From positions 3,269-61,398 of the forward strand of contig JAQTNJ010000001.1 of the NCBI GenBank assembly GCA_028713955.1: a stretch of DNA of 58,130 nucleotides, given 5' to 3'. The notes under the pieces were generated by a model. That model saw only the letters and a program-made list of their open reading frames with translations. It was not told the DNA's origin and did not search any database. Made by a program: the position numbers and the translations under genes. Positions 530 to 47,603 of the stretch are shown here, piece after piece (within the stretch, counting starts at the first letter, position 1; every line of letters starts with the position of its first letter). The DNA is from Syntrophorhabdaceae bacterium. GTDB taxonomy: Bacteria > Desulfobacterota > Syntrophorhabdia > Syntrophorhabdales > Syntrophorhabdaceae.

Positions 530-596
530 GGATCTTCACAGAGAGATAATAATCTACTTCTCCGTATTTCTCAATACATTAACACCCACTATTCGT

Positions 597-645
597 TTTG
601 AACATTTGAAATTAAGATTTTGATATAACGTAGAAGATAGCTTGT
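597..645. repeat. 7-nt-phased degenerate array (TTTGAAC ATTTGAA ATTAAGA TTTTGAT ATAACGT AGAAGAT AGCTTGT) just 5' of family-A copy 1
   Basis: Read directly; the phase holds over 7 units. It contains GTTTTGAACATTTG (595-608), whose reverse complement occurs at 39382-39395. Confidence 0.5.
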
Positions 646-663
646 CCCAGATACATCCTGTAG

Positions 664-814
664 GGCACTGATGTCGGGATATCCCGGAGCAAACCGTCGT
701 GAGACAAGGAAGCTTGGTCTTTTGCGAAGCAAAAGTTCCGAAGCCGAACGCGAGCGAATGGAGCCGCAGGAGCGAAATGAGCGTGTTTGCCGGGGATGTC
801 CCGACATCAGTGCC
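664..814 (+). repeat. Family-A element, copy 1: conserved core of about 120 nt between perfectly complementary 16-bp arms (664-679 / 799-814)
   Basis: The arms are GGCACTGATGTCGGGA and TCCCGACATCAGTGCC. The core (GGAGCAAACCGTCGTGAG..CTTTTGCGAAGCAAAAGTTCCGAAGCC..GAGCGTGTTTGC) recurs at 39512-39662 (same orientation) and 18171-18327 (inverted). Confidence 0.85.
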
Positions 815-894
815 TATCCTATAATGGGAAATCAGAATTAAAAAACAGGGGTGTGGTGCTGCGGTGTGGTAAAAGCGGGGAGATTGTTGCGTTG

Positions 895-3728: not shown

Positions 3729-5291
3729 TTATCTGTCCTTTAGCCGGTATACGGATAAAGAATATTCCCGGAACTTCTCAAGCGCCGGGAGATTTATCTT
3801 TTCAAAAACCGATGGTTGAAGGCTGTTCAGGATGTTCCTGTAAGAGACGTTATCGGTCTTTTCATCCAGTATGAGAAACCGGGCATTGCCTTTTTTCATA
3901 AAACCCACCAATTCGTCTATTGTTTGTGCAAATGGCAGGGAATCAAATTCAGAATCCGCATAAAATGCAATCCTGTAAAGACGCGGCTCTCCCGCGAATA
4001 CTACCCCCGAATAGCCTTTGGCCTTAAGATATACACCTGCCTCCTTCAACTCTCTTTTCTCATAACCTCCCGGGGATAATGTCTTCGGCAGGATCGCGAT
4101 GAGGATCGCAAAGATAAGGATTGCCGCCATATGCCTTGTAAGAAAGGCTGACGGGTATACCTTCCTGAGCCATGAACAGATCTGCTCTTTCAATTCAAAA
4201 TAGCCGATCCCTGCCCAGATCAGCATGGGAAACCCGAGCAGACTCCCGTGCCGTGTGCTGAAGTAATAAACCTTTGCGATGTACAGAAATGCAGTGAGGA
4301 AAAAAACGCCGAACCAGATCGCGACAGGGATCTCGTTTTTGCTGTAGGCCACTTTTTTTCTTCCGAAAATACCGATAATTGCAAGAAAGAAAAAGACCAC
4401 ATTGAGCGACTTGACAAGTTTAAGGATTATGTCGGAGAGAAAGATGACATACTTGTGGCCCCTTGCAAGCTCCAGAAATGTGATCAACTCAGGTCTCACC
4501 GATTGAATAGTTTCGGGCGACAGCTCAAGTGCTTCACTGCTTTTGCTCGTTATAAGAAGCCATATCTTCACAAAAGTAAAACCAAAATCCCACTTCGCAA
4601 ATATTTCGCTGAAAAGAAAAATAAAAGGCAAAAGCAGAACCGGAAAGGTAAAGATATATACGGAGAGATAAGAAAAGAGTTTTTTAGAGTCCGGTTCTTG
4701 TTTGGAGAAATACCAGATGATCCACAAAAAGATCACAACGAAAATGGCAACGCCTTCGATCCGGGCAAAGGCTGCCAGCGCTGTCGATATGCCTGACAAT
4801 ACTATCCATATAAGGCTTCCGCGCGAGACCCCTTCCCACGCAAGCCATAAGGCAGTTACCGAAAAAAACCAGAAGGTAGGTTCCCTGAGCACGTCTGCCG
4901 AATAGTCGGCAAACCTCGGGTTAATAATATAAAAAAGCGCTGTTATCGATGCGATGCGAACACCGAACATCCGTTTTGTCAAAAGAAAAAGCGGAATGAC
5001 GGCCAGTGACCCCATAAATACGGATACCATACGTCCTGCCGTCTCCCAGTCGGGAAATATTGTATGGGCAAGCAAAACAAGATATGGATACAGATGGATA
5101 AAAGTAAATTCCATAAGTTTTTTCGATGCCCCGAGCTCGATGAGCCTGGCGGTTTTTATGTATAAAATACCGTCAGGGGTTATTATGTTTGAGAAAAAGG
5201 CCAGGTAAAACCTTATTGCAAAAGCGCCAATAAAGGCAAAGACGGGCAATAGCCAGATCCTTTTTTCAACTTCTGTTATCTGAAATTTCAA
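3729..5291 (-). CDS. polytopic GT-C-type glycosyltransferase (ArnT/PMT_2-like) with a soluble C-terminal domain
   Basis: About 10 or more hydrophobic helices. Early loop motif ITPDGILYIKTARLIE. The last ~110 aa are hydrophilic. This is a family-level call only. Confidence 0.5.
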   Translation of the reverse strand: MKFQITEVEKRIWLLPVFAFIGAFAIRFYLAFFSNIITPDGILYIKTARLIELGASKKLMEFTFIHLYPYLVLLAHTIFPDWETAGRMVSVFMGSLAVIPLFLLTKRMFGVRIASITALFYIINPRFADYSADVLREPTFWFFSVTALWLAWEGVSRGSLIWIVLSGISTALAAFARIEGVAIFVVIFLWIIWYFSKQEPDSKKLFSYLSVYIFTFPVLLLPFIFLFSEIFAKWDFGFTFVKIWLLITSKSSEALELSPETIQSVRPELITFLELARGHKYVIFLSDIILKLVKSLNVVFFFLAIIGIFGRKKVAYSKNEIPVAIWFGVFFLTAFLYIAKVYYFSTRHGSLLGFPMLIWAGIGYFELKEQICSWLRKVYPSAFLTRHMAAILIFAILIAILPKTLSPGGYEKRELKEAGVYLKAKGYSGVVFAGEPRLYRIAFYADSEFDSLPFAQTIDELVGFMKKGNARFLILDEKTDNVSYRNILNSLQPSVFEKINLPALEKFREYSLSVYRLKDR

Positions 5292-8087: not shown

Positions 8088-8199
8088 GTATATCGTATTT
8101 CGTATGTCGTATATCGAAAGATGCTCGATACTCGTCGCTTGATACTCGATAATCGACGCTGATAGCTGTATGCTGACTGCTGACGGCTATCTTCTATCT
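8088..8199. repeat. 7-nt-phased array of 16 units (GTATATC GTATTTC GTATGTC GTATATC GAAAGAT GCTCGAT ACTCGTC GCTTGAT ACTCGAT AATCGAC GCTGATA GCTGTAT GCTGACT GCTGACG GCTATCT TCTATCT)
   Basis: Phase checked base by base from 8088. The leading ACAGTATATCGTAT.TCGTAT.TCGTATATCGAAA block recurs at 9361-9387 and at 44707-44738. Confidence 0.8.
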
Positions 8200-9363: not shown

Positions 9364-9440
9364 GTATATCGTATATCGTATATCGAAAAAACCATACCGG
9401 ATGCTCGATACTCATCGCTGGATGCTGGATGCTCGTCTAT
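9364..9440. repeat. 7-nt-phased array (GTATATC x3 perfect, then GAAAAAA CCATACC GGATGCT CGATACT CATCGCT GGATGCT GGATGCT CGTCTAT)
   Basis: Read directly. Same orientation and same two sub-motifs (GTATATC, GATGCTC/GATACTC) as 8088-8199. Confidence 0.8.
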
Positions 9441-14634: not shown

Positions 14635-16349
14635 ATATAATTCTCTATCCCCTTAAAGAACGCCTTATACCCTGTCGGGGTGAGGATATGGATGCCCTCT
14701 TTCCCCTGGTGGATCAGGTAGGCATCGATTTGTTCAAGAAAGAGCTGGTTGAAGCGGTGACGCTCGATAACGAGGTCCCTTTCCTCAGGCTCCACCTTCT
14801 CGTCATAGAAGTGGAACCCGCCTGTCGCATCTGCGCCGATGTACCCATCAAGGCCCACGGCGAATATCCGTTCTGCGCCCATGACGATGGCGATGCCCAT
14901 CAAGAGCACAGAGATGGTCCTGCAGTTTGACTGGATGATCCCGTCGACGATGCCGAAGTCACCGAGGGTATCTTCAAAATAGAGGGTCTCATAGGGGCGT
15001 GCCGTATACTCGCGTACCATCTCCTCGGGGATGTTTTCGCCTATCATAAGGATTGAGTCCTTTTCGACGGTATCGACGTAGTCGGTGAAGCGCTTCTTGT
15101 TGTTGAAGGCATGGTAATGAGGGGTAAAAAAACCGGAGATATAATTGGCGCCGAGGATGATGGGATTATGTTTTTTGATAAAGGCCTCTATTCTGGGCCG
15201 ATACTCCTTCAGGGTGGGGCCGTTTGCAAGGATCAGAAACTCCCTCCCCGCGTGGCGGTCCTTATAGGGGACTCCCCCATCGATGCTCCGTTCAGGGGTT
15301 ACTGCCTTCTCGGGTGCGGAGGGTGTTGAACTTTTGTGCTGTGTGCTCCCTATCATGCCGCTTTTGATTATGTCGTTGAGGATATCCTTTGAAAAACCTA
15401 CGGGGTTGATCTTCTTTACGATCTCAAGGGCACTCCATATGTCTTCCATGGAATATTCGCGGTAGTCGACAAGCGTCTTCGGATAGTAGGGATGGCACTG
15501 GAAGATGCCGGAAAGCATATAGGGAAGCTGGTATCCCCATGGCTCGTCGGTATCGATGTTCATGAAAAACCGGTCGATGACATGGAGGACCGGGATCACA
15601 TTATACTTGTCGGTCGTCGAGAGCTGGAGGTAAGAGAGAAGGACCTCGGTGGGGAGGTTTCCTGCGCCCCTGCCCATCCCGTATATCGTCGAATCCACGA
15701 TGTCAATGCCGCATTTGATCGCCTCCAGAGTATTGGCAAATGCCATCTGGAGACCGTTATGAGGATGGAATCCCACCTTGATGTGTTTCAGTTCCTGGAA
15801 GGGCTCGATGAGGGGCCGCATCTGGTCAGGCAGGATCGAACCATAGCTGTCGGCGATATAGACGTAATCGATGGATGAGTCCTTGAGGACGGTGACCAGT
15901 TCCCTGATCTCGTCTCGTGTATAGCTCGTGATCCCCATGGCCTGGAGGGAAACCAGAAAACCTTTCTTCCGGATAGCCTCAAGCTGTTTTATCGCATTGA
16001 AAGCACCGTCCTTGTGGACGGCAATCCTGACGAGGCTCACGTACTGGCAATAGTCGTCGGTGATGTCATCCGTGTCGAGTTTGCCGAAATCGCCCATGAT
16101 TGCGACCTTTGCCCCGTTTATCCCCTGCACCACATCCCTGAGGTCATCGATATCGGTAAACCTCCAGGGGCCGAACTGATCTCTTTTGAAATATTTCTCG
16201 GTGCCGCGGAAGCCGATCTCTACGATATCGATCCCTGCCTTCGAGAGGGCACGGTAGACCTCGCGGACCATCCTTTTATCGAAGCGCCAGTTGTTGAGGT
16301 ACCCGCCGTCGCGGATGGTACAGTCTAAGATCTCATAGTTCAGACTCAT
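14631..16349 (-). CDS. fusion protein: N-terminal HMGL-like (DmpG-type pyruvate aldolase/carboxyltransferase) TIM barrel plus C-terminal DUF115/MptE-like (Maf-type) domain
   Basis: N-terminal half: LDCTIRDGGY, GFHPHNGLQMAFANTLEAIKCG, DSTIYGMGRGAGNLPTE. C-terminal half: FLILANGPTLKEY...ILGANY...AVGLDGY. Confidence 0.6.
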   Translation of the reverse strand: MSLNYEILDCTIRDGGYLNNWRFDKRMVREVYRALSKAGIDIVEIGFRGTEKYFKRDQFGPWRFTDIDDLRDVVQGINGAKVAIMGDFGKLDTDDITDDYCQYVSLVRIAVHKDGAFNAIKQLEAIRKKGFLVSLQAMGITSYTRDEIRELVTVLKDSSIDYVYIADSYGSILPDQMRPLIEPFQELKHIKVGFHPHNGLQMAFANTLEAIKCGIDIVDSTIYGMGRGAGNLPTEVLLSYLQLSTTDKYNVIPVLHVIDRFFMNIDTDEPWGYQLPYMLSGIFQCHPYYPKTLVDYREYSMEDIWSALEIVKKINPVGFSKDILNDIIKSGMIGSTQHKSSTPSAPEKAVTPERSIDGGVPYKDRHAGREFLILANGPTLKEYRPRIEAFIKKHNPIILGANYISGFFTPHYHAFNNKKRFTDYVDTVEKDSILMIGENIPEEMVREYTARPYETLYFEDTLGDFGIVDGIIQSNCRTISVLLMGIAIVMGAERIFAVGLDGYIGADATGGFHFYDEKVEPEERDLVIERHRFNQLFLEQIDAYLIHQGKEGIHILTPTGYKAFFKGIENYI

Positions 16350-18157
16350 CCCTTCTCCTCTCCTTTTTCCCTTTGGTATAGGGCATTATAATAGCCATCC
16401 TTTGCAAGAAGCTCCGTATGCGTTCCCTCTTCCACGATCTCACCTTGTTTCATAACGAATATCCTGTCTGCATGCTCGATGGTCGAAAGCCTGTGGGCTA
16501 TAATGACCGTCGTCCTGTTCTTTTCCACCTCTCTCAATGAATCCTGTATCACCTTTTCCGATATATTGTCGAGGGAGCTTGTAGCCTCATCGAGGATGAG
16601 GATCTCGGGATTCTTTATGACTGCCCTCGCGATGGCTATCCTCTGGCACTGACCTCCCGACAGCGTGATGCCCCTGTCGCCGACAATCGTGTCGTATCTC
16701 TCAGGAAGCTCCGCGATAAACTGGTGGGCGTTGGCGATCCTTGCCGCATCAATGATCTCCTTCTCTGTGGCATCAAGCTTGCCGATCCTGATGTTATCCC
16801 TGACAGAGGCATGGAATATGAATGTATCCTGGCTCACCATGCTCAGGTGCTTCAGCCATGAAGAGCGTGAGTAATCCTGATAATCGATCCCGTCAACAAG
16901 CACCTGTCCCGATGAGGGCCCGTACAGACGAAGCAACAGGTCGGCCAGCGTTGACTTTCCTGATCCGGACTCTCCTACAATGGCAATCGTTCTGTTTCTC
17001 GGTATGGTGATATCGATATCTTTGAGGACATTTGCCCTCGTGGGATAAGAGAATGATACATGGCTCAGTTTCATTTCACCCGTTAAACCCTGGAAATCCT
17101 TCCCGCCGTCATCCGTATCATATTCCGTGTCAGCCAGTGTCTCGTAGGTAAGACGAATACGTGGAGCAAGGCCTTTAAGCCCCATCCATTGATGCGCTAT
17201 CTCCTTGACGGAAGGCATGAGCCTCATAAGTGCACCGACATAAACAATGATGATAGGGAATATCTTCATGAAATCATCGGGCATATAGAGTTTTGCGTAG
17301 ATGATCGCGAGGATCGTACTGAGGGAACCGACCGATAATATCAGATGTGAGGAAAAATACGCCGGTGCAGTATAGGTAAATTGCTGTTTCCTTGCAACGG
17401 TCAACTCTTTCCTCAGTTTCTCAAACCAGTACCTGTAATTGTCGAAGAGTTTTATCTGCCTTATCCCTGAGATCGATTCTGAAAATAGCGTCGTGATATT
17501 CGCATACGCTATCTGCGCTCTTTGAGCGGAAGGATTGATGATCTTGTTGGAAAGCACATAGACGATCACGCTGAATGCGGCAATAACGATGTACATAAGG
17601 AGGGTAAATTTTATTGATATCGTCAGCAGAAGTACTGTTATGATCGCGATCCTGAAAAATTCCACACCGGCCTTGGGAAAGTAAAAGAACATCTCTCCCA
17701 CCGATCCCGACGCCTCCCTGCCGATATACATCAGCTCTCCGTGCTTCCTGGTGTGGAAATAGCTATACTGGTTCAGCAATATCTTCCGGAAGATCCTGTT
17801 CTGCAAATCAGTGTAAAGCTGCAGATGATACCAGAGGGCAGCGCTTTCCGATATGATCCCGAATATCCGGCTCAATATGATCAATATAAGAAGCAGTAAA
17901 CTCGCGGCGACGAGCGCATCGCTGACAGGGAGAAATGATGAAGCCGAATCGAGGTATTCAAGTATTTTCCCACCGTACTGCGCTGCCGAGCCTGTTTTTG
18001 AAAGGATCCTGCTCAGAAAGGGATAAAGGGCGCCAACGCTGAGCGTCTCCAGGAGGGCATAGATAAAAAGCAACAGGAATACAAAAAGGGCCTTGAGCCA
18101 ATAGGGCCTCAGGAACCAGACCATGATCTGAATATCACTCAGTTGTTTTTTCTGCAT
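16346..18157 (-). CDS. fused TMD-NBD ABC exporter (MsbA/PglK-like)
   Basis: Six N-terminal helices. Walker A GESGSGKST, signature LSGGQCQRIAIARA, Walker B ILILDEATS. Confidence 0.9.
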   Translation of the reverse strand: MQKKQLSDIQIMVWFLRPYWLKALFVFLLLFIYALLETLSVGALYPFLSRILSKTGSAAQYGGKILEYLDSASSFLPVSDALVAASLLLLILIILSRIFGIISESAALWYHLQLYTDLQNRIFRKILLNQYSYFHTRKHGELMYIGREASGSVGEMFFYFPKAGVEFFRIAIITVLLLTISIKFTLLMYIVIAAFSVIVYVLSNKIINPSAQRAQIAYANITTLFSESISGIRQIKLFDNYRYWFEKLRKELTVARKQQFTYTAPAYFSSHLILSVGSLSTILAIIYAKLYMPDDFMKIFPIIIVYVGALMRLMPSVKEIAHQWMGLKGLAPRIRLTYETLADTEYDTDDGGKDFQGLTGEMKLSHVSFSYPTRANVLKDIDITIPRNRTIAIVGESGSGKSTLADLLLRLYGPSSGQVLVDGIDYQDYSRSSWLKHLSMVSQDTFIFHASVRDNIRIGKLDATEKEIIDAARIANAHQFIAELPERYDTIVGDRGITLSGGQCQRIAIARAVIKNPEILILDEATSSLDNISEKVIQDSLREVEKNRTTVIIAHRLSTIEHADRIFVMKQGEIVEEGTHTELLAKDGYYNALYQREKGEEKG

Positions 18158-18170
18158 GGGACTTTATGGT

Positions 18171-18327
18171 TGAGTTTCGTGCCAGGCTTTCCCCGCAAAC
18201 ACGCTCATTCCGCTCCAGCGGCTCCATTCGCTCGCTGTTTCCGCTTCGGAACTTTTGCCTAACGGCAAAAGACCGAGCTTCCTTGCCTCACGACGGTTTG
18301 CTAAAGGAGGGCCTGGCACGAAACTCA
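18171..18327 (-). repeat. Family-A element, copy 3 (inverted): same core, with different 17-bp perfect arms (18171-18187 / 18311-18327)
   Basis: The arms are TGAGTTTCGTGCCAGGC and GCCTGGCACGAAACTCA. The reverse complement of the interior aligns to copies 1 and 2 (AGCAAACCGTCGTGAGGCAAGGAAGCTCGGTCTTTTGCC GTTA GGCAAAAGTTCCGAAGC...GAGCGTGTTTGC). Confidence 0.85.
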
Positions 18328-18401
18328 GCTATTTATCTGGAATAAACTTATTTGTCCGATGATAAACCTTTTTATTTAAATCCCCACATTGAAAAATAAG
18401 G

Positions 18402-38089: not shown

Positions 38090-38110
38090 GTTATCTCCTC
38101 TTAACTGGGT

Positions 38111-39286: not shown

Positions 39287-39344
39287 TTCCCCTTTCGATA
39301 TGTTTTTCCATTATGGGCAATTCTTAAATCCGTATGTATGAATG

Positions 39345-39379
39345 AAATCCTAAATCCGAATTTCTAAATCCTAAACAAA
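39345..39379. repeat. 7-nt-phased array (AAATCCT AAATCCG AATTTCT AAATCCT AAACAAA)
   Basis: Read directly. Confidence 0.6.
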
Positions 39380-39419
39380 TTCAAATGTTCAAAACTGCAG
39401 GAAACATGCACCTGCTTGG

Positions 39420-39482
39420 AATATTTAATATTTGAATTTTGATATTGTTTAGTGCTTCGTGCTTAGAATTTCGATATTACGT
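39420..39482. repeat. 7-nt-phased array (AATATTT AATATTT GAATTTT GATATTG TTTAGTG CTTCGTG CTTAGAA TTTCGAT ATTACGT) 5' of family-A copy 2
   Basis: Read directly. Its 3' part resembles the array 5' of copy 1 (TTTTGATATAACGTAGAAGATAG versus TTTCGATATTACGTAAAAAATAG). Confidence 0.6.
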
Positions 39483-39511
39483 AAAAAATAGTCTACCCGG
39501 TCATATAATGA

Positions 39512-39662
39512 GAGCATGGCGCCGGGATATCCCGGAGCAAACCGTCGTGAGGCAAGGAAGCTTGGTCTTTTGCGAAGCAAAAGTTCCGAAGCCGAACGCG
39601 AGCGAATGAAGCCGCAGGAGCGGAATGAGCGTGTTTGCGGGGGATGTCCCGACGCCATGCTC
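39512..39662 (+). repeat. Family-A element, copy 2: same core, 16-bp arms with one C.A mismatch (39512-39527 / 39647-39662)
   Basis: The arms are GAGCATGGCGCCGGGA and TCCCGACGCCATGCTC. The core differs from copy 1 at only a handful of positions by eye. Confidence 0.85.
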
Positions 39663-39743
39663 ATCCTTACGGAGGAAAGTCCCGGATACATCATTTTCAC
39701 TCTTCGAGGGTGCCGTGCAAGCTAGGATTTTTTAATATTACCA

Positions 39744-44705: not shown

Positions 44706-44802
44706 GCAGTATATCGTATTTCGTATATCGTATATCGTAAAAGGCCTTAAAGGTCTTTTGCTGTTCACTATATACGATCGACGATATACGAAATACTGCT
44801 GC
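44706..44802. repeat. palindromic pair of GTATATC/GTATTTC heptamer arrays around a small hairpin (AAAAGGCC TTAA AGGTCTTTT)
   Basis: The left arm 44708-44737 matches the reverse complement of the right arm 44768-44797 at 25 of 30 positions. Same heptamers as at 8088 and 9364. Confidence 0.75.
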
Positions 44803-44815
44803 TCTTGTCCTTCCG

Positions 44816-46455: not shown

Positions 46456-47603
46456 GATGATATGAGCTCCTTTATCGTTTTGCAGACATAGTATACGTCG
46501 TCTTCTGTGTTGAGTGTCGAACTGGGAAGACAAAGTCCTCTTTCGTATATCTCACGGGAATTCTCAAATACTCGATTATCGGTTGCAAAGGGAGGGAATT
46601 CGGTAACAGGCATAAAGACCCTTCTCGTCGGTATTCCTCTTTCTCTCAAATCCTTCTGGAGCGACGGCAGGTCTGTCTTGCCTTCGAAGGTCACACAGGT
46701 AAGCCACCATGAGCTTGCAGCACCATCATACTGACCCTGAAAACGTACATTCGATTTGTCACCAAGTTCTTCACGGTAGATCTCACTGAAACGCCTCTTC
46801 CTGTCAGAAAAGTCATCCAGTCTTGCCATCTGGGCCAACCCAAGCGCTGCTTCGATGTTTGTCATCCTGTAGTTGAATCCTATCTCCGGATGATAGTATC
46901 CTCTTGATTCGTCACGCGCCTGATTGACAAGAAACTTGATGTGCTCCAGGCTATCCTCATTATTACCGACAACCATTCCACCTCCACCTGTCGTGATCGT
47001 CTTGTTCCCATTAAAGCTGAAACACCCCAGATCACCGATCGTCCCGGTATAACGTCCCTTGTATGCAGCACCCAGGCTTTCAGTGGCGTCCTCAATGACA
47101 ATGAGTCCAGACTTTTTCGCTATCTTCATTATTTCGTCCATATTACAAGGGTTCCCGTAAAGATGCACAGGAATGATCGCCCTTGTCCGCGACGATAAGC
47201 ACTTTTCTATCTCCTTCGGATCGATGTTCCATGTATCCCTCTCAACATCTGCGAAAACAGGCCTGGCATTTACATAAATTACAGGATTTACTGTTGCCAC
47301 AAAGGTAAGGGCGGGCACGATAACCTCGTCACCCTCTCCAATCCCCATCTCATAAAGAGCCATATGGAGTGCCGCTGTCCCGCTCTGGGTAGATACTGCC
47401 CTCTTTGTATCGAGATACCCTGCAAACTTCTCTTCGAACTCCGACACAAAGGGGCCGAAGGTGGAAACAAAACCAGAGTCGATCACCCTTGTAATATAAT
47501 CCTTTTCGATCGCGCCCAGATTAGGCGCATCAAGCTCAATGTGCAACAGGGTTCTCCAGTCTCGGTTTTGTATTGTAATATATATCGGCGTCAGGGTCTT
47601 CAA
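46452..47603 (-). CDS. DegT-family aminotransferase (LegC-like)
   Basis: SGTAALHMAL, EDATESLGA, and FSFNGNKTITTGGGG carrying the PLP lysine. The track start is TTG and overlaps the upstream gene by 68 nt. A TTG at 47546 is a likelier start. Confidence 0.8.
   Translation of the reverse strand: MKTLTPIYITIQNRDWRTLLHIELDAPNLGAIEKDYITRVIDSGFVSTFGPFVSEFEEKFAGYLDTKRAVSTQSGTAALHMALYEMGIGEGDEVIVPALTFVATVNPVIYVNARPVFADVERDTWNIDPKEIEKCLSSRTRAIIPVHLYGNPCNMDEIMKIAKKSGLIVIEDATESLGAAYKGRYTGTIGDLGCFSFNGNKTITTGGGGMVVGNNEDSLEHIKFLVNQARDESRGYYHPEIGFNYRMTNIEAALGLAQMARLDDFSDRKRRFSEIYREELGDKSNVRFQGQYDGAASSWWLTCVTFEGKTDLPSLQKDLRERGIPTRRVFMPVTEFPPFATDNRVFENSREIYERGLCLPSSTLNTEDDVYYVCKTIKELISS

What the first reader, a model, noticed from the sequence alone, without database searches (positions are those of the whole stretch)
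664..814. Family-A element: near-identical ~120-nt core clamped by copy-specific, self-complementary 16-17-bp arms (3 copies)
There are three copies: 664-814 (+), 39512-39662 (+) and 18171-18327 (inverted). They share a core that is almost identical by eye (about 4 differences between copies 1 and 2).

The flanking arms differ strongly between copies:
- Copy 1: GGCACTGATGTCGGGA / TCCCGACATCAGTGCC.
- Copy 2: GAGCATGGCGCCGGGA / TCCCGACGCCATGCTC.
- Copy 3: TGAGTTTCGTGCCAGGC / GCCTGGCACGAAACTCA.

Within each copy the arms are perfectly complementary or have one mismatch. Between copies they range from partly similar (copies 1 and 2 share 9 of 16 positions) to unrelated (copy 3 versus the others).

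Point-mutation drift of a single repeat would not give arms this diverged with partners always matched next to a core this conserved. Two explanations fit:
- The closing stem is selected for pairing only, as in a structured RNA or a DNA cruciform.
- The core is a small mobile insert that lands in the loops of pre-existing hairpins.

I do not recognise the core as any RNA family I know.
Basis: seen in the sequence. Interest (0 to 1): 0.8.

Follow-up and report, generated by a model that had tools for sequence, protein, structure and literature searches.

The report
Hairpin-shaped miniature transposon with conserved core
The three repeats are copies of a previously undescribed small non-coding jumping-DNA element (a MITE) that is common in Syntrophorhabdus-type bacteria; it folds into a long hairpin whose stem changes by matched mutations while its roughly 100-base tip stays almost constant.

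Summary
There are three copies, and only three (covariance-model scan, filters off). Their cores are nearly identical, and their arms differ but are self-complementary.

About 230 further copies were found in Syntrophorhabdaceae genomes and anaerobic metagenomes. They show:
- **Size and ends:** a basal element of about 205 bp with short terminal inverted repeats, 5'-CCCRGATAAGTC…GGAAAATCYGGG-3'.
- **Insertion signature:** an exact 5-bp AT-rich target-site duplication (YTTAW), which is a MITE signature.
- **Turnover:** a genome about 84% identical to the window has empty, differently filled or oppositely oriented sites at all three window positions, so copies come and go quickly.

The arms are not unrelated sequences or pre-existing hairpins. 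They are diverged versions of one sub-terminal inverted repeat. Pairing is kept by many double-sided changes (279 compensated cells against 88±9 in shuffles).

The core is the most conserved part (0.88-0.90 pairwise identity against 0.61-0.70 for the arms). It is non-coding and has no Rfam match. It folds much better on the + strand, which points to an RNA-level role, but that role is unproven. No partner transposase was found. The CC…GG ends and the 5-bp duplication resemble the IS1380 family.

**Verdict:** a new MITE family of an unusual type, of moderate interest.

The parts
646..837 (+). Copy 1, whole basal element. The 5' terminal repeat CCCAGATAC starts at 646. The 3' terminal repeat is degenerate (GGGAAATCAGAA, 826-837). 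No target duplication is recognisable.
   Evidence: covariance-model hit at 661-816, 170.3 bits.
664..679 (+). Copy 1, 5' arm GGCACTGATGTCGGGA.
   Evidence: It is the perfect complement of 799-814.
689..790 (+). Copy 1, conserved asymmetric core (GCAAACC…GTTTGC).
799..814 (+). Copy 1, 3' arm TCCCGACATCAGTGCC.
596..645 (+). Copy 1, remnant of the lineage-specific left 'shell' (TTTTGAACATTTGAAATTAAGATTTTGATATAACGTAGAAGATAGCTTGT).
   Evidence: Aligns with the left flank of the window/JAGOOA sub-family.
18158..18340 (-). Copy 3, whole basal element. The 5' end CCAGATAAAT is at 18340. The 3' end …AAAGTCCC is at 18158 and directly abuts the ATG of the ABC-transporter ORF 16346-18157.
   Evidence: covariance-model hit at 18170-18329, 155 bits.
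18311..18327 (-). Copy 3, 5' arm TGAGTTTCGTGCCAGGC.
   Evidence: inverted repeat I5.
18195..18301 (-). Copy 3, core. It is 5 nt longer than in copies 1 and 2 (a longer hairpin, GCC-GTTA-GGC, and GGAAACAGC).
18171..18187 (-). Copy 3, 3' arm GCCTGGCACGAAACTCA.
39496..39685 (+). Copy 2, whole basal element. The 5' terminal repeat CCCGGTCAT starts at 39496. The 3' terminal repeat GGAAAGTCCCGG is at 39674-39685.
   Evidence: covariance-model hit at 39509-39664, 173.6 bits.
39512..39527 (+). Copy 2, 5' arm GAGCATGGCGCCGGGA.
39537..39638 (+). Copy 2, core.
39647..39662 (+). Copy 2, 3' arm TCCCGACGCCATGCTC (one C·A mismatch with the 5' arm).
39343..39495 (+). Copy 2, left outer shell. It contains AAATCCT heptamer repeats, a hairpin and the string ACGTAAAAAATAGTCTA, which includes a weak -35/-10-like pair (TAAAAA … TATAAT).
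   Evidence: The consensus promoter scan did not call it.
39686..39739 (+). Copy 2, right outer shell (ATACATCATTTTCACTCTTCGAGGGTGCCGTGCAAGC TAGGATTTTTTAATATT). It is a truncated version of the GC hairpin plus heptamer end seen in sister copies.

Best explanation

**Anatomy.** The basal element is about 205 bp. From the outside in it has four parts:
- short terminal inverted repeats, 5'-CCCRGAT…ATCYGGG-3';
- a loosely paired spacer;
- the 'arms', a 14-17-bp sub-terminal inverted repeat, followed by a further imperfect stem;
- an asymmetric core of about 100 nt, closed by GCAAACC/GGTTTGC.

**How it moves (inferred).** A DDE transposase supplied in trans recognises the CC…GG termini and inserts the element at YTTAW pentamers, duplicating 5 bp. 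These pentamers are often the stop-codon region of a gene. The termini and the duplication point to an IS1380-like enzyme.

**Why the arms differ between copies yet match within each copy (inferred).**
- Copies turn over quickly, so what we see are recent offspring of a few proliferating lineages.
- In those lineages the hairpin, but not its sequence, and the core sequence are both kept by selection.
- The arm types are therefore specific to sub-lineages rather than created anew at each site.

**Likely level of the constraint (inferred).** The inner stem and the core tolerate G·U but not A·C on the + strand. Insertion orientation shows no bias towards either replication strand. So the constraint most likely acts on a + strand RNA of about 150-200 nt. 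That RNA would be made from an element-borne promoter in some sub-families, or by read-through.

**Shown:**
- family membership;
- termini and target duplication;
- presence/absence polymorphism;
- compensatory stem evolution;
- core conservation.

**Inferred:**
- the transposase family;
- RNA as the selected molecule;
- what the RNA does.
For: **Multi-copy family.**
- 94 genome loci, nearly all Syntrophorhabdus or Syntrophorhabdaceae.
- More than 120 metagenome loci.
- 98 covariance-model hits in 100 of those loci.

**Termini and 5-bp duplication.**
- Genome set: the 5-mers flanking the termini match in direct orientation 4.06/5 on average, against 2.77±0.26 when flanks are permuted (largest of 2000 permutations 3.67); 7 of 18 pairs are perfect.
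- Independent metagenome set: 4.24 against 3.13±0.16; 11 of 21 are perfect 5-mers and none is a perfect 6-mer.

**Presence/absence in a genome about 84% identical.**
- The window site 38090-38110 is empty where L038 carries a ~470-bp composite.
- The window copy 2 site lacks the element in L038.
- The copy 3 and copy 1 sites hold different or oppositely oriented copies.

**Location.** 30 copies lie between convergent genes and 9 between divergent genes. Stop codons often lie inside the duplication.

**Not coding.** The core has indels that are not multiples of three.

**Stem covariation.**; own-partner against other-partner duplex energies.

**Core more conserved than the arms in a set not selected on those positions.** Pairwise identity is 0.88-0.90 against 0.61-0.70, and 0.36-0.54 for the outer ends.

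**Strand asymmetry.**
- Consensus fold energy is -21.0 on the + strand against -2.6 on the reverse complement, and -41.9 against -23.5 in the smaller set.
- G·U against A·C counts are 94:30 in the inner stem and 156:20 in the core helices.

**Covariation inside the core.** Seen at 38/138, 104/130 and 108/126 and in the AAUGGAGC-loop-GCGGAAU hairpin.

**No replication-strand bias.** 43 against 54.

**IS1380-family resemblance.** ISEcp1 has the left end CCTAGATTCTACGT and makes 5-bp AT-rich duplications (PMC6061673).
Against: **Mobility.**
- No autonomous partner or transposase was found in about 1.4 Mb of held loci. The IS1380 link rests on 8 of 14 matching terminal bases plus the duplication length.
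- None of the three window copies shows a recognisable duplication.
- In the window lineage the unit that is present or absent is a larger composite whose own ends and mechanism are unresolved.

**RNA role.**
- There is no conserved promoter or terminator across sub-families, and the consensus scans were negative.
- Between co-directional genes the orientation is unbiased (14 sense, 19 antisense). Read-through transcription would therefore give the + strand RNA in only about half of those copies.
- In the outer arms, G·U and A·C mismatches are equally common (66:48, and 6 against 7 pairs). That is not what selection on RNA alone predicts.
- The G·U excess comes from a handful of high-frequency positions. 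Copies are phylogenetically related, so cell counts overstate the number of independent events.
Confidence: 0.6

Rival explanations
1. It is the same MITE, but nothing acts at the RNA level.
- The arms stay complementary through a neutral DNA process: arm-to-arm gene conversion, or template switching within a quasi-palindrome during replication or repair. A change in one arm is then either erased or copied into the other arm.
- The core is conserved only because it is needed in cis for transposition (a binding site or enhancer), or because all surviving copies are young.
For: - Outer-arm mismatches are symmetric between strands (G·U 66, A·C 48).
- Insertion orientation is unbiased with respect to host transcription (14 against 19).
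- No conserved promoter or terminator was found.
- Fast turnover means the copies are young.
- From general knowledge, not tested here: arm-to-arm conversion in palindromes and template-switch correction of quasi-palindromes are established processes.
Against: - The inner stem and core helices show a clear excess of G·U over A·C on one strand (94:30 and 156:20). The consensus fold is far better on the + strand.
- Youth alone cannot explain why core and arms of the same copies differ so much in divergence (0.88-0.90 against 0.61-0.70).
- The hairpins in the core vary in loop length, and their non-canonical pairs are replaced by Watson-Crick pairs in some copies, as in RNA helices.
Confidence: 0.22
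2. The core is a new structured RNA with an activity of its own, for example a self-cleaving ribozyme or a protein-binding small RNA. The MITE is merely its vehicle. The variable closing stem is the usual 'P1' of such RNAs.
For: - The architecture fits small ribozymes or aptamers: a variable closing helix with covariation, a multi-helix junction with near-invariant unpaired purine-rich stretches, a hairpin of variable length and loop, and tolerance of a 74-nt extra domain in one hairpin loop.
- It is multi-copy, intergenic and found in either orientation, as many bacterial ribozymes are.
- It matches no Rfam family.
Against: - There is no biochemical or expression evidence.
- Covariation inside the core is sparse because the sequence hardly varies.
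- There is no association with any gene class.
- High sequence conservation could equally reflect a DNA or protein-binding role.
Confidence: 0.1
3. It is an ordinary, immobile family of paralogous small-RNA genes, each with its own promoter and terminator. The closing stem evolves by compensatory change, as in 6S or Y RNA.
For: - The window sub-family carries a TAGAAA-17-TATAAT-like pair just upstream of the 5' arm, and a GC hairpin (GCCGCGCGAAGCGCGGC) downstream.
- The stem shows covariation.
Against: - The 5-bp target duplications and terminal inverted repeats lie outside the putative transcript.
- Related genomes have empty and differently filled orthologous sites.
- There are dozens of copies per genome, including truncated and interrupted ones.
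- The promoter-like and terminator-like strings are absent from the other sub-families and were not called by the scans.
Confidence: 0.04
4. One reading: the core is a small mobile insert that lands in the loops of unrelated, pre-existing hairpins such as terminators.
For: - Other small modules in these genomes do insert inside Family-A copies: the 74-nt module B at four or more sites, and heptamer palindromes and CCCTCTCCC/GGGAGAGGG palindromes that replace core interiors.
- This kind of nesting therefore exists in these genomes.
Against: - The arms of all copies are homologous (one consensus).
- The sequence outside the arms is also shared, out to common termini with a duplication.
- No arm hairpin without the core termini was found. 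The variants that lack the core interior still keep GCAAACCGTCGTGAG… and …GCGTGTTTGC.
Confidence: 0.03

Closest known systems
ERIC / IRU elements of enterobacteria (about 127-bp imperfect palindromes)
   Same: - Small, non-coding, multi-copy and intergenic, in either orientation.
- The whole element is a long imperfect hairpin.
- Variants carry extra modules inserted at internal sites.
- RNA-level structure has been proposed for it (from my own knowledge of the literature; not checked here).
   Different: - No sequence similarity.
- Family A has clear terminal repeats and an exact 5-bp duplication.
- Family A has a large asymmetric core of about 100 nt that is its most conserved part.
- Family A shows fast insertion turnover.
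Correia elements (CREE/NEMIS) of Neisseria
   Same: - A MITE with terminal inverted repeats and a target duplication.
- Often sits next to gene ends and is co-transcribed with them.
- Its RNA hairpin is an RNase III substrate (my own knowledge). The ≥23-bp Family-A stem would probably be one too (inference).
   Different: - Correia elements duplicate TA, and their 26-bp terminal repeats are the conserved, pairing part.
- In Family A the termini are short and poorly conserved.
- In Family A the pairing arms are sub-terminal and variable, and the centre is conserved.
IS1380-family insertion sequences (e.g. ISEcp1) and their derivative units
   Same: - CC…GG termini: CCCAGATAAGTCAT against the ISEcp1 left end CCTAGATTCTACGT, 8 of 14 bases, with CCnAGAT shared.
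- 5-bp AT-rich target duplications (PMC6061673).
- Tolerance of degenerate or surrogate right ends (PMC9330008), which could explain the variable outer extents.
   Different: - No IS1380-type transposase, or any autonomous copy with these ends, was found.
- The resemblance is a lead, not a membership.
Structured-RNA families with a variable closing helix (small ribozymes, 6S, Y RNA, retron msr/msd with a1/a2 repeats)
   Same: - The closing stem is conserved in pairing but not in sequence.
- A conserved multi-helix core.
- A preference for one strand.
   Different: - None of these is flanked by terminal repeats with target duplications or shows insertion polymorphism.
- No reverse transcriptase or other partner gene lies nearby.
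- No Rfam match.
Integron attC sites and REP/BIME elements
   Same: Recombination or repeat sites defined by hairpin structure more than by sequence; intergenic and multi-copy.
   Different: - attC sites have conserved outer R boxes (GTTRRRY) and a variable centre, the opposite of this element, and they separate single-gene cassettes.
- REP elements are about 35 nt, are linked to RAYT transposases and leave no duplication.
- Neither fits.

Membership tests
MITE (non-autonomous DNA transposon) | Small (under about 500 bp) and with no coding capacity. | tested here: met
   The basal unit is about 205 bp. Indels in the core are not multiples of three, and no conserved ORF is present.
MITE (non-autonomous DNA transposon) | Terminal inverted repeats. 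| tested here: met
   5'-CCCRGATAWGTC … GGAAAATCYGGG-3' in 18 genome copies and 21 metagenome copies. The repeats are degenerate in window copies 1 and 3.
MITE (non-autonomous DNA transposon) | Target-site duplication of fixed length. | tested here: met
   Exactly 5 bp. 7 of 18 and 11 of 21 pairs are perfect; no perfect 6-mers. Permutation controls are far lower. The duplication is not recognisable at the three window copies.
MITE (non-autonomous DNA transposon) | Many dispersed copies with presence/absence polymorphism between related genomes. | tested here: met
   At least 13 copies in one MAG and 7 in S. aromaticivorans UI. Empty and filled orthologous sites: window against L038, L080 and L036.
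MITE (non-autonomous DNA transposon) | An autonomous partner element with the same ends that encodes the transposase. | tested here: inconclusive
   None in about 1.4 Mb of held loci.
IS1380-family derivative | CC…GG ends and a 4-5-bp AT-rich duplication. | tested here: met
   ISEcp1 values are taken from PMC6061673. The family-wide 'CC ends, 4-5 bp' rule is from memory.
IS1380-family derivative | Mobilised by an IS1380-type DDE transposase. | not tested
   No candidate protein is in hand.
Structured non-coding RNA gene | Covariation that supports a secondary structure. | tested here: met
   Closing helix: 14 of 17 and 21 of 22 pairs change on both sides, with 0 of 500 shuffles reaching the observed values. 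Support for the core helices is only sparse.
Structured non-coding RNA gene | Structure specific to one strand. | tested here: inconclusive
   The + strand is favoured in consensus fold energy and in G·U:A·C counts for the inner stem and core, but not for the outer arms. The counts are not phylogenetically independent.
Structured non-coding RNA gene | Its own promoter and terminator, and a detectable transcript. | tested here: not met
   The consensus scans were negative. Promoter-like and terminator-like strings occur in one sub-family only. Expression cannot be tested with these tools.
Any Rfam family | Score at or above the gathering threshold. | tested here: not met
   No hit over the window, over 14 loci, or at E ≤ 10 on the element itself.
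Integron attC site | Conserved outer R''/R' boxes (RYYYAAC / GTTRRRY), a variable centre, and one cassette per site. | tested here: not met
   The outer ends are CCCRGAT/ATCYGGG, the centre is the conserved part, and the window copies lie 18-21 kb apart.
IS200/IS605-type or REP/RAYT single-strand elements | No target duplication, and an orientation bias relative to replication. | tested here: not met
   A 5-bp duplication is present. There is no GC-skew orientation bias, 43 against 54. No TnpA, TnpB or RAYT gene is nearby.
Retron msr/msd | An adjacent reverse transcriptase, and a single copy. | tested here: not met
   No recurrent neighbouring gene; dozens of copies.

The most novel reading that the evidence does not exclude
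The ~100-nt core is a new class of structured RNA: a ribozyme, or an RNA that recruits a protein. It is carried by a MITE and is itself required for the element's spread or persistence. Selection on the RNA fold would then explain three things: why the stem co-varies, why the centre rather than the termini is the conserved part, and why further small structured modules (the 74-nt module B) nest inside it in the same orientation.
Probability: 0.15. Interest if true: 0.8.

Novelty: new variant of a known kind. Interest (0 to 1): 0.45.

Why it matters
**If the MITE reading is right.**
- It gives a first described mobile-repeat family for Syntrophorhabdia, key syntrophic aromatic-compound degraders of anaerobic digesters.
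- It explains assembly breaks and synteny breakpoints in their MAGs.
- It flags insertion sites inside operons of a surface-polysaccharide locus, where a ≥23-bp hairpin could change mRNA processing.

**More generally.**
- The pattern is the reverse of a normal MITE: the termini drift, the stem co-varies and the centre is frozen. The element therefore carries something that selection sees. That makes it a good candidate for finding either a new functional RNA or a cis-acting transposition signal.
- It is also a clean natural example for separating RNA-level compensatory evolution from DNA-level homogenisation of palindrome arms.

Tried and rejected
- **Rfam.** Searched at gathering thresholds over the window and 14 loci, and at E ≤ 10 or E ≤ 1 on the element and on module B. 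The only hits were a chance snoRNA match and an unrelated tRNA.
- **Promoter and terminator scans around all three copies.** One unrelated minus-strand promoter-like site near copy 1 and one weak terminator-like site inside the copy 3 core. Neither count exceeds that in shuffled sequence.
- **Recurrent neighbouring genes.** All-against-all clustering of ORFs within 3 kb of 94 loci gave only spurious ORFs across the element and abundant housekeeping families (radical SAM, ABC ATPase). No transposase, reverse transcriptase or nuclease recurred.
- **Autonomous element.** Searched for paired CCCNGAT ends 0.9-3 kb apart with a 5-bp duplication: none. The 1.8-kb insert in L213 is an unrelated IS with different ends.
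- **Empty hairpins.** The only candidate (L049) is an N-filled assembly gap.
- **Coding potential.** Rejected because of frame-breaking indels.
- **Orientation bias.** An apparent bias towards downstream convergent genes (62 against 27) mostly reflects the preference for convergent intergenic regions. For co-directional genes the split is 14 against 19.
- **Replication-strand bias.** Rejected.
- **Phage or virus origin.** No hits in viral contigs. The loose module-B hits there were chance matches in coding DNA.
- **Literature.** Searches for Syntrophorhabdus repeats, MITEs or ncRNAs found nothing relevant.
- **My first hairpin guess for the core (CRAG-GAAG-CUYG).** Dropped because A·C combinations are frequent there.
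- **Sigma-54 and IHF consensus matches in the core.** Looked for by eye; they do not fit.
Full report
**1. Checking the observation**

- Copy 1: arms at 664-679 and 799-814, perfectly complementary.
- Copy 2: arms at 39512-39527 and 39647-39662, with one C·A mismatch.
- Copy 3: on the minus strand, arms at 18327-18311 and 18187-18171, perfectly complementary over 17 bp.

Copies 1 and 2 share 131 nt at 97% identity. Copy 3 is 81-96% complementary to them over the core.

The + strand of copy 1 folds at -84.2 kcal/mol (z = -8.9). The reverse strand folds at -72.3 kcal/mol (z = -7.7).

A covariance model built later (R1) and run over the whole window with filters off finds exactly these three copies, at 155-174 bits. 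The next unrelated hit scores 13.5 bits. nhmmer gives the same answer.

The window is a surface-polysaccharide biosynthesis locus with all genes on the minus strand. It encodes epimerases, Polysacc_synt_2, an ABC exporter, methyltransferases, aminotransferases and radical-SAM enzymes. All three copies are intergenic.

**2. The family**

An exact-pattern scan of one genome per species returned 94 loci. Nearly all come from Syntrophorhabdus aromaticivorans UI or from MAGs labelled Syntrophorhabdus, Syntrophorhabdaceae, 'Syntrophus' or Deltaproteobacteria, with several to more than a dozen copies per genome.

A second scan of metagenome contigs required only the 5' part of the core. Those loci hold 87 full and 53 partial nhmmer matches, and R1 gives 98 hits in 100 of them.

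Viral contigs hold none. Rfam has no matching family at gathering score or at permissive E-values. Literature searches found no description.

**3. The arms are part of the element, and the element is larger than reported**

Aligned copies (A2 with 89 sequences; A3) show that all arms are variants of one sequence, consensus GAGCATGGTGTCGGG / CCCGACACCGATGCTC.

The arm types are specific to sub-lineages, not to individual sites. Copy 1's type recurs in L044, and copy 3's is close to the CGGTGCCGGGC type of L047, L054 and L073.

Similarity and pairing continue outwards, through a loosely paired spacer, to 5'-CCCRGATAAGTC … GGAAAATCYGGG-3'.

Immediately outside these termini lies a 5-bp AT-rich direct repeat such as TTTAT, TTTAA, TTAAA, ATTAT or TTAAT.
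- **Genome set.** The flanking 5-mers match 4.06/5 on average, against 2.77±0.26 when flanks are permuted (largest of 2000 permutations 3.67). Seven of 18 pairs are perfect.
- **Independent metagenome set.** The figures are 4.24 against 3.13±0.16. Eleven of 21 are perfect 5-mers and none is a perfect 6-mer.

Terminal inverted repeats, a fixed-length target duplication, small size, no coding capacity (frame-breaking indels) and many dispersed copies together define a MITE.

The three window copies have degenerate or embedded termini and no recognisable duplication. Their MITE status therefore rests on family membership.

**4. Mobility seen directly**

Three held loci come from a MAG (JAGOOA Go_SlDig_bin_68) whose genes are about 84% identical to the window.
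- **Site 38090-38110.** Where the window has a 20-nt spacer between two operon genes, L038 has a ~470-bp insertion containing a Family-A copy.
- **Copy 2 site (39467-39723).** L038 has only an AT-rich 'shell' sequence there.
- **Copy 3 site.** L080 has a copy of another sub-family at a different position and in the opposite orientation.
- **Copy 1 site.** L036 has an oppositely oriented copy, and synteny ends there.

So none of the three window copies is orthologous in this relative. Turnover is faster than species divergence.

Copies prefer convergent over divergent intergenic regions (30 against 9). Between co-directional genes they show no orientation preference (14 sense, 19 antisense).

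The stop codon of a neighbouring gene often lies in or next to the duplication, or inside the element. This fits an AT-rich YTTAW target.

No gene family, and in particular no transposase, recurs next to the element. No autonomous element with the same ends is present in the held DNA.

The CC…GG ends and the 5-bp AT-rich duplication match what is reported for ISEcp1 of the IS1380 family: left end CCTAGATTCTACGT, of which 8 of 14 bases are shared with CCCAGATAAGTCAT (PMC6061673). This is a lead, not a test.

**5. The stem**

*Genome set, RNAalifold structure on a MAFFT alignment.* The closing helix is 92.7% paired, and 14 of 17 pairs show changes on both sides. Over the whole structure there are 135 compensated cells, against 40.6±4.9 in column shuffles (0 of 500 reach the observed value) and 15-66 in slid controls.

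*Metagenome set, aligned to R1, which leans towards the model's structure.* Twenty-one of 22 pairs change on both sides. There are 279 compensated cells against 88±9, and at most 94 in slid controls.

Each 5' flank pairs with its own 3' flank at -37.3 kcal/mol on average, against -27.5 with the flanks of other copies. The own partner is better in 125 of 142 copies.

Among 73 distinct copies there are 60 different 5' arm sequences, with a median of two non-Watson-Crick pairs per 14.

**6. The core**

In the metagenome set only the first 23 core positions were selected for. Mean pairwise identity there is:

| Region | Pairwise identity |
|---|---|
| Rest of the core | 0.88-0.90 |
| Arms | 0.61-0.70 |
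| Inner stem | 0.58-0.63 |
| Outermost parts | 0.36-0.54 |

This is the reverse of a usual MITE, in which the termini are the constrained part.

The best-supported fold has these elements:
- a GCAAACC/GGUUUGC closing helix;
- a GUC-GUGA-GRC hairpin;
- a GCUYGG/CC-GAAGC helix carrying a CUUUUGC-loop-GCAAAAG hairpin of variable loop and length (GAA, GUAA, AUAA, or a stem extended by C-G, U-A or U·G);
- an AAUGGAGC-CGCWGGA-GCGGAAU hairpin whose tandem G·A-type pairs become Watson-Crick pairs in L059 and L066.

Covariation inside the core is sparse because the sequence hardly varies.

**7. Which molecule is constrained?**

The consensus fold is much better on the + strand: -21.0 against -2.6 kcal/mol for 157 sequences, and -41.9 against -23.5 for 87.

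Counting mismatches in helices, which is symmetric with respect to the choice of strand, gives the following:

| Region | G·U | A·C |
|---|---|---|
| Inner stem | 94 | 30 |
| Core helices | 156 | 20 |
| Outer arms | 66 | 48 |

The inner part therefore behaves like a + strand single-stranded nucleic acid. The outer arms demand Watson-Crick pairing on both strands, or are homogenised at the DNA level.

Insertion orientation is unrelated to GC skew (43 against 54). This argues against a replication-coupled single-strand DNA mechanism of the IS200/IS605 kind, as does the presence of a target duplication. RNA is therefore the more likely constrained molecule.

However, no promoter or terminator is conserved across sub-families. 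Only the window sub-family has TAGAAA-17-TATAAT-like and GC-hairpin strings. There is also no orientation bias relative to host transcription.

My reading is that selection acts mainly on the proliferating lineages, at the level of the element, rather than on every resident copy. I put about 0.6 on 'MITE with a selected hairpin and core, probably RNA'. I put about 0.22 on the version in which arm complementarity is kept by neutral arm-to-arm conversion and no RNA matters.

**8. Outer layers and nesting**

In the window/JAGOOA lineage and in the S. aromaticivorans lineage, the basal element sits inside further lineage-specific sequence with its own inverted ends.

In the window lineage this outer sequence has three parts:
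- palindromic arrays of AT-rich heptamers;
- the string ACGTAGAAAATAGTCTAT on the left;
- ATACATCATTTTCATTCTTCGAGGGTGCCGCGCGAAGCGCGGCATGGGTAATT on the right.

The present/absent unit in L038 against the window is this whole composite. Its ends and mechanism remain unresolved.

Family-A copies are themselves targets for other insertions.
- A 74-nt three-hairpin module (module B) sits at four or more different sites in the core.
- Heptamer palindromes or CCCTCTCCC/GGGAGAGGG palindromes replace core interiors.
- One copy is split by an IS.

So 'small inserts inside hairpins' do occur in these genomes. But the variants that lack the core interior still keep the core's two ends. No arm hairpin without a core was found; the one candidate is an assembly gap.

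**9. Comparison and verdict**

The element works like the structured MITEs, the ERIC and Correia type. It meets every tested defining feature of a MITE except an identified partner transposase. It is not a member of any Rfam family, nor an attC, REP/RAYT, IS200/IS605 or retron system; each fails a tested feature.

What sets it apart is the conservation pattern, with a frozen asymmetric centre, a co-varying stem and drifting termini, together with the strand asymmetry.

I rate it a new variant of a known kind, with interest 0.45. The most novel reading still open is a new functional RNA that rides in, and is needed by, a MITE. I give that about 0.15 probability; it would be of high interest if true.

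Noticed in passing
window 18300-39500: GC content drops from about 0.49 to 0.40-0.44 exactly between the inverted copies 3 and 2. The interior (about 19.06-36.7 kb) has no counterpart in the held parts of the 84%-identical JAGOOA contig. It looks like an exchangeable glycan-gene block bounded by the repeats.
   Followed up: partly
window 8088-8164, 9364-9435, 44709-44745, 39345-39375: AT-rich heptamer tandem repeats sit in the intergenic spacers (GTATATC ×3-4, AAATCCT ×4.4, plus a GATACTC-type 21-mer). The same kind of heptamer array forms palindromic 'shells' around Family-A units in this lineage. One stands alone at the L038 site orthologous to window copy 2.
   Followed up: partly
L115:1559-1632, L117:712-785, L182, L204, L140, L152, L119, L007, L177; outside Family A at L141:1798-1871: A 74-nt 'module B' (AGCCCACACAGTGGGCGAGAAGGGGAGGCTCC-hairpin-GGAGGGGGCGACGCAAGCCCCAGTAAT) folds into three hairpins (MFE -39.6 kcal/mol, z = -3.7). 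It is nested at four or more different sites inside Family-A cores, always in the same orientation, and occurs once outside Family A. It has no Rfam match and is not present in the window.
   Followed up: partly
L064:3095-3370, L082:1835-2060, L001:4300-4460, L074:7880-8000, L177:2540-2900: In these Family-A copies the core interior is replaced by heptamer-repeat palindromes or by CCCTCTCCCGCGAGGGGAGAGGG-type palindromes. The core's two ends and the arms are kept.
   Followed up: partly
L213:2270-4068: One Family-A copy is split by an unrelated insertion sequence: a 506-aa transposase, terminal repeats ACCTGTGAAATAATC, and an apparent 3-bp TAA duplication.
   Followed up: partly
window 18155-18160 and L038:1430-1923: Copy 3 ends directly at the ATG of the ABC-exporter ORF 16346-18157, with no Shine-Dalgarno sequence in between. 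In the relative L038, a ~470-bp composite sits between two tightly linked operon genes, in sense orientation. Both placements would put a long hairpin into the operon mRNA.
   Followed up: no
window 39672-39686 (and L015): The 3' terminal region of the window sub-family reads GGAGGAAAGTCCCGG. It resembles the conserved GAGGAAAGUCCGGGC string of bacterial RNase P RNA. Rfam calls no RNase P here, so this is taken as coincidence.
   Followed up: partly
window 44708-44804, 5136-5186, 47395-47459: The covariance model gives weak hits here (11-13.5 bits). These are simply other local hairpins or palindromes. The first is the GTATATC heptamer region.
   Followed up: no
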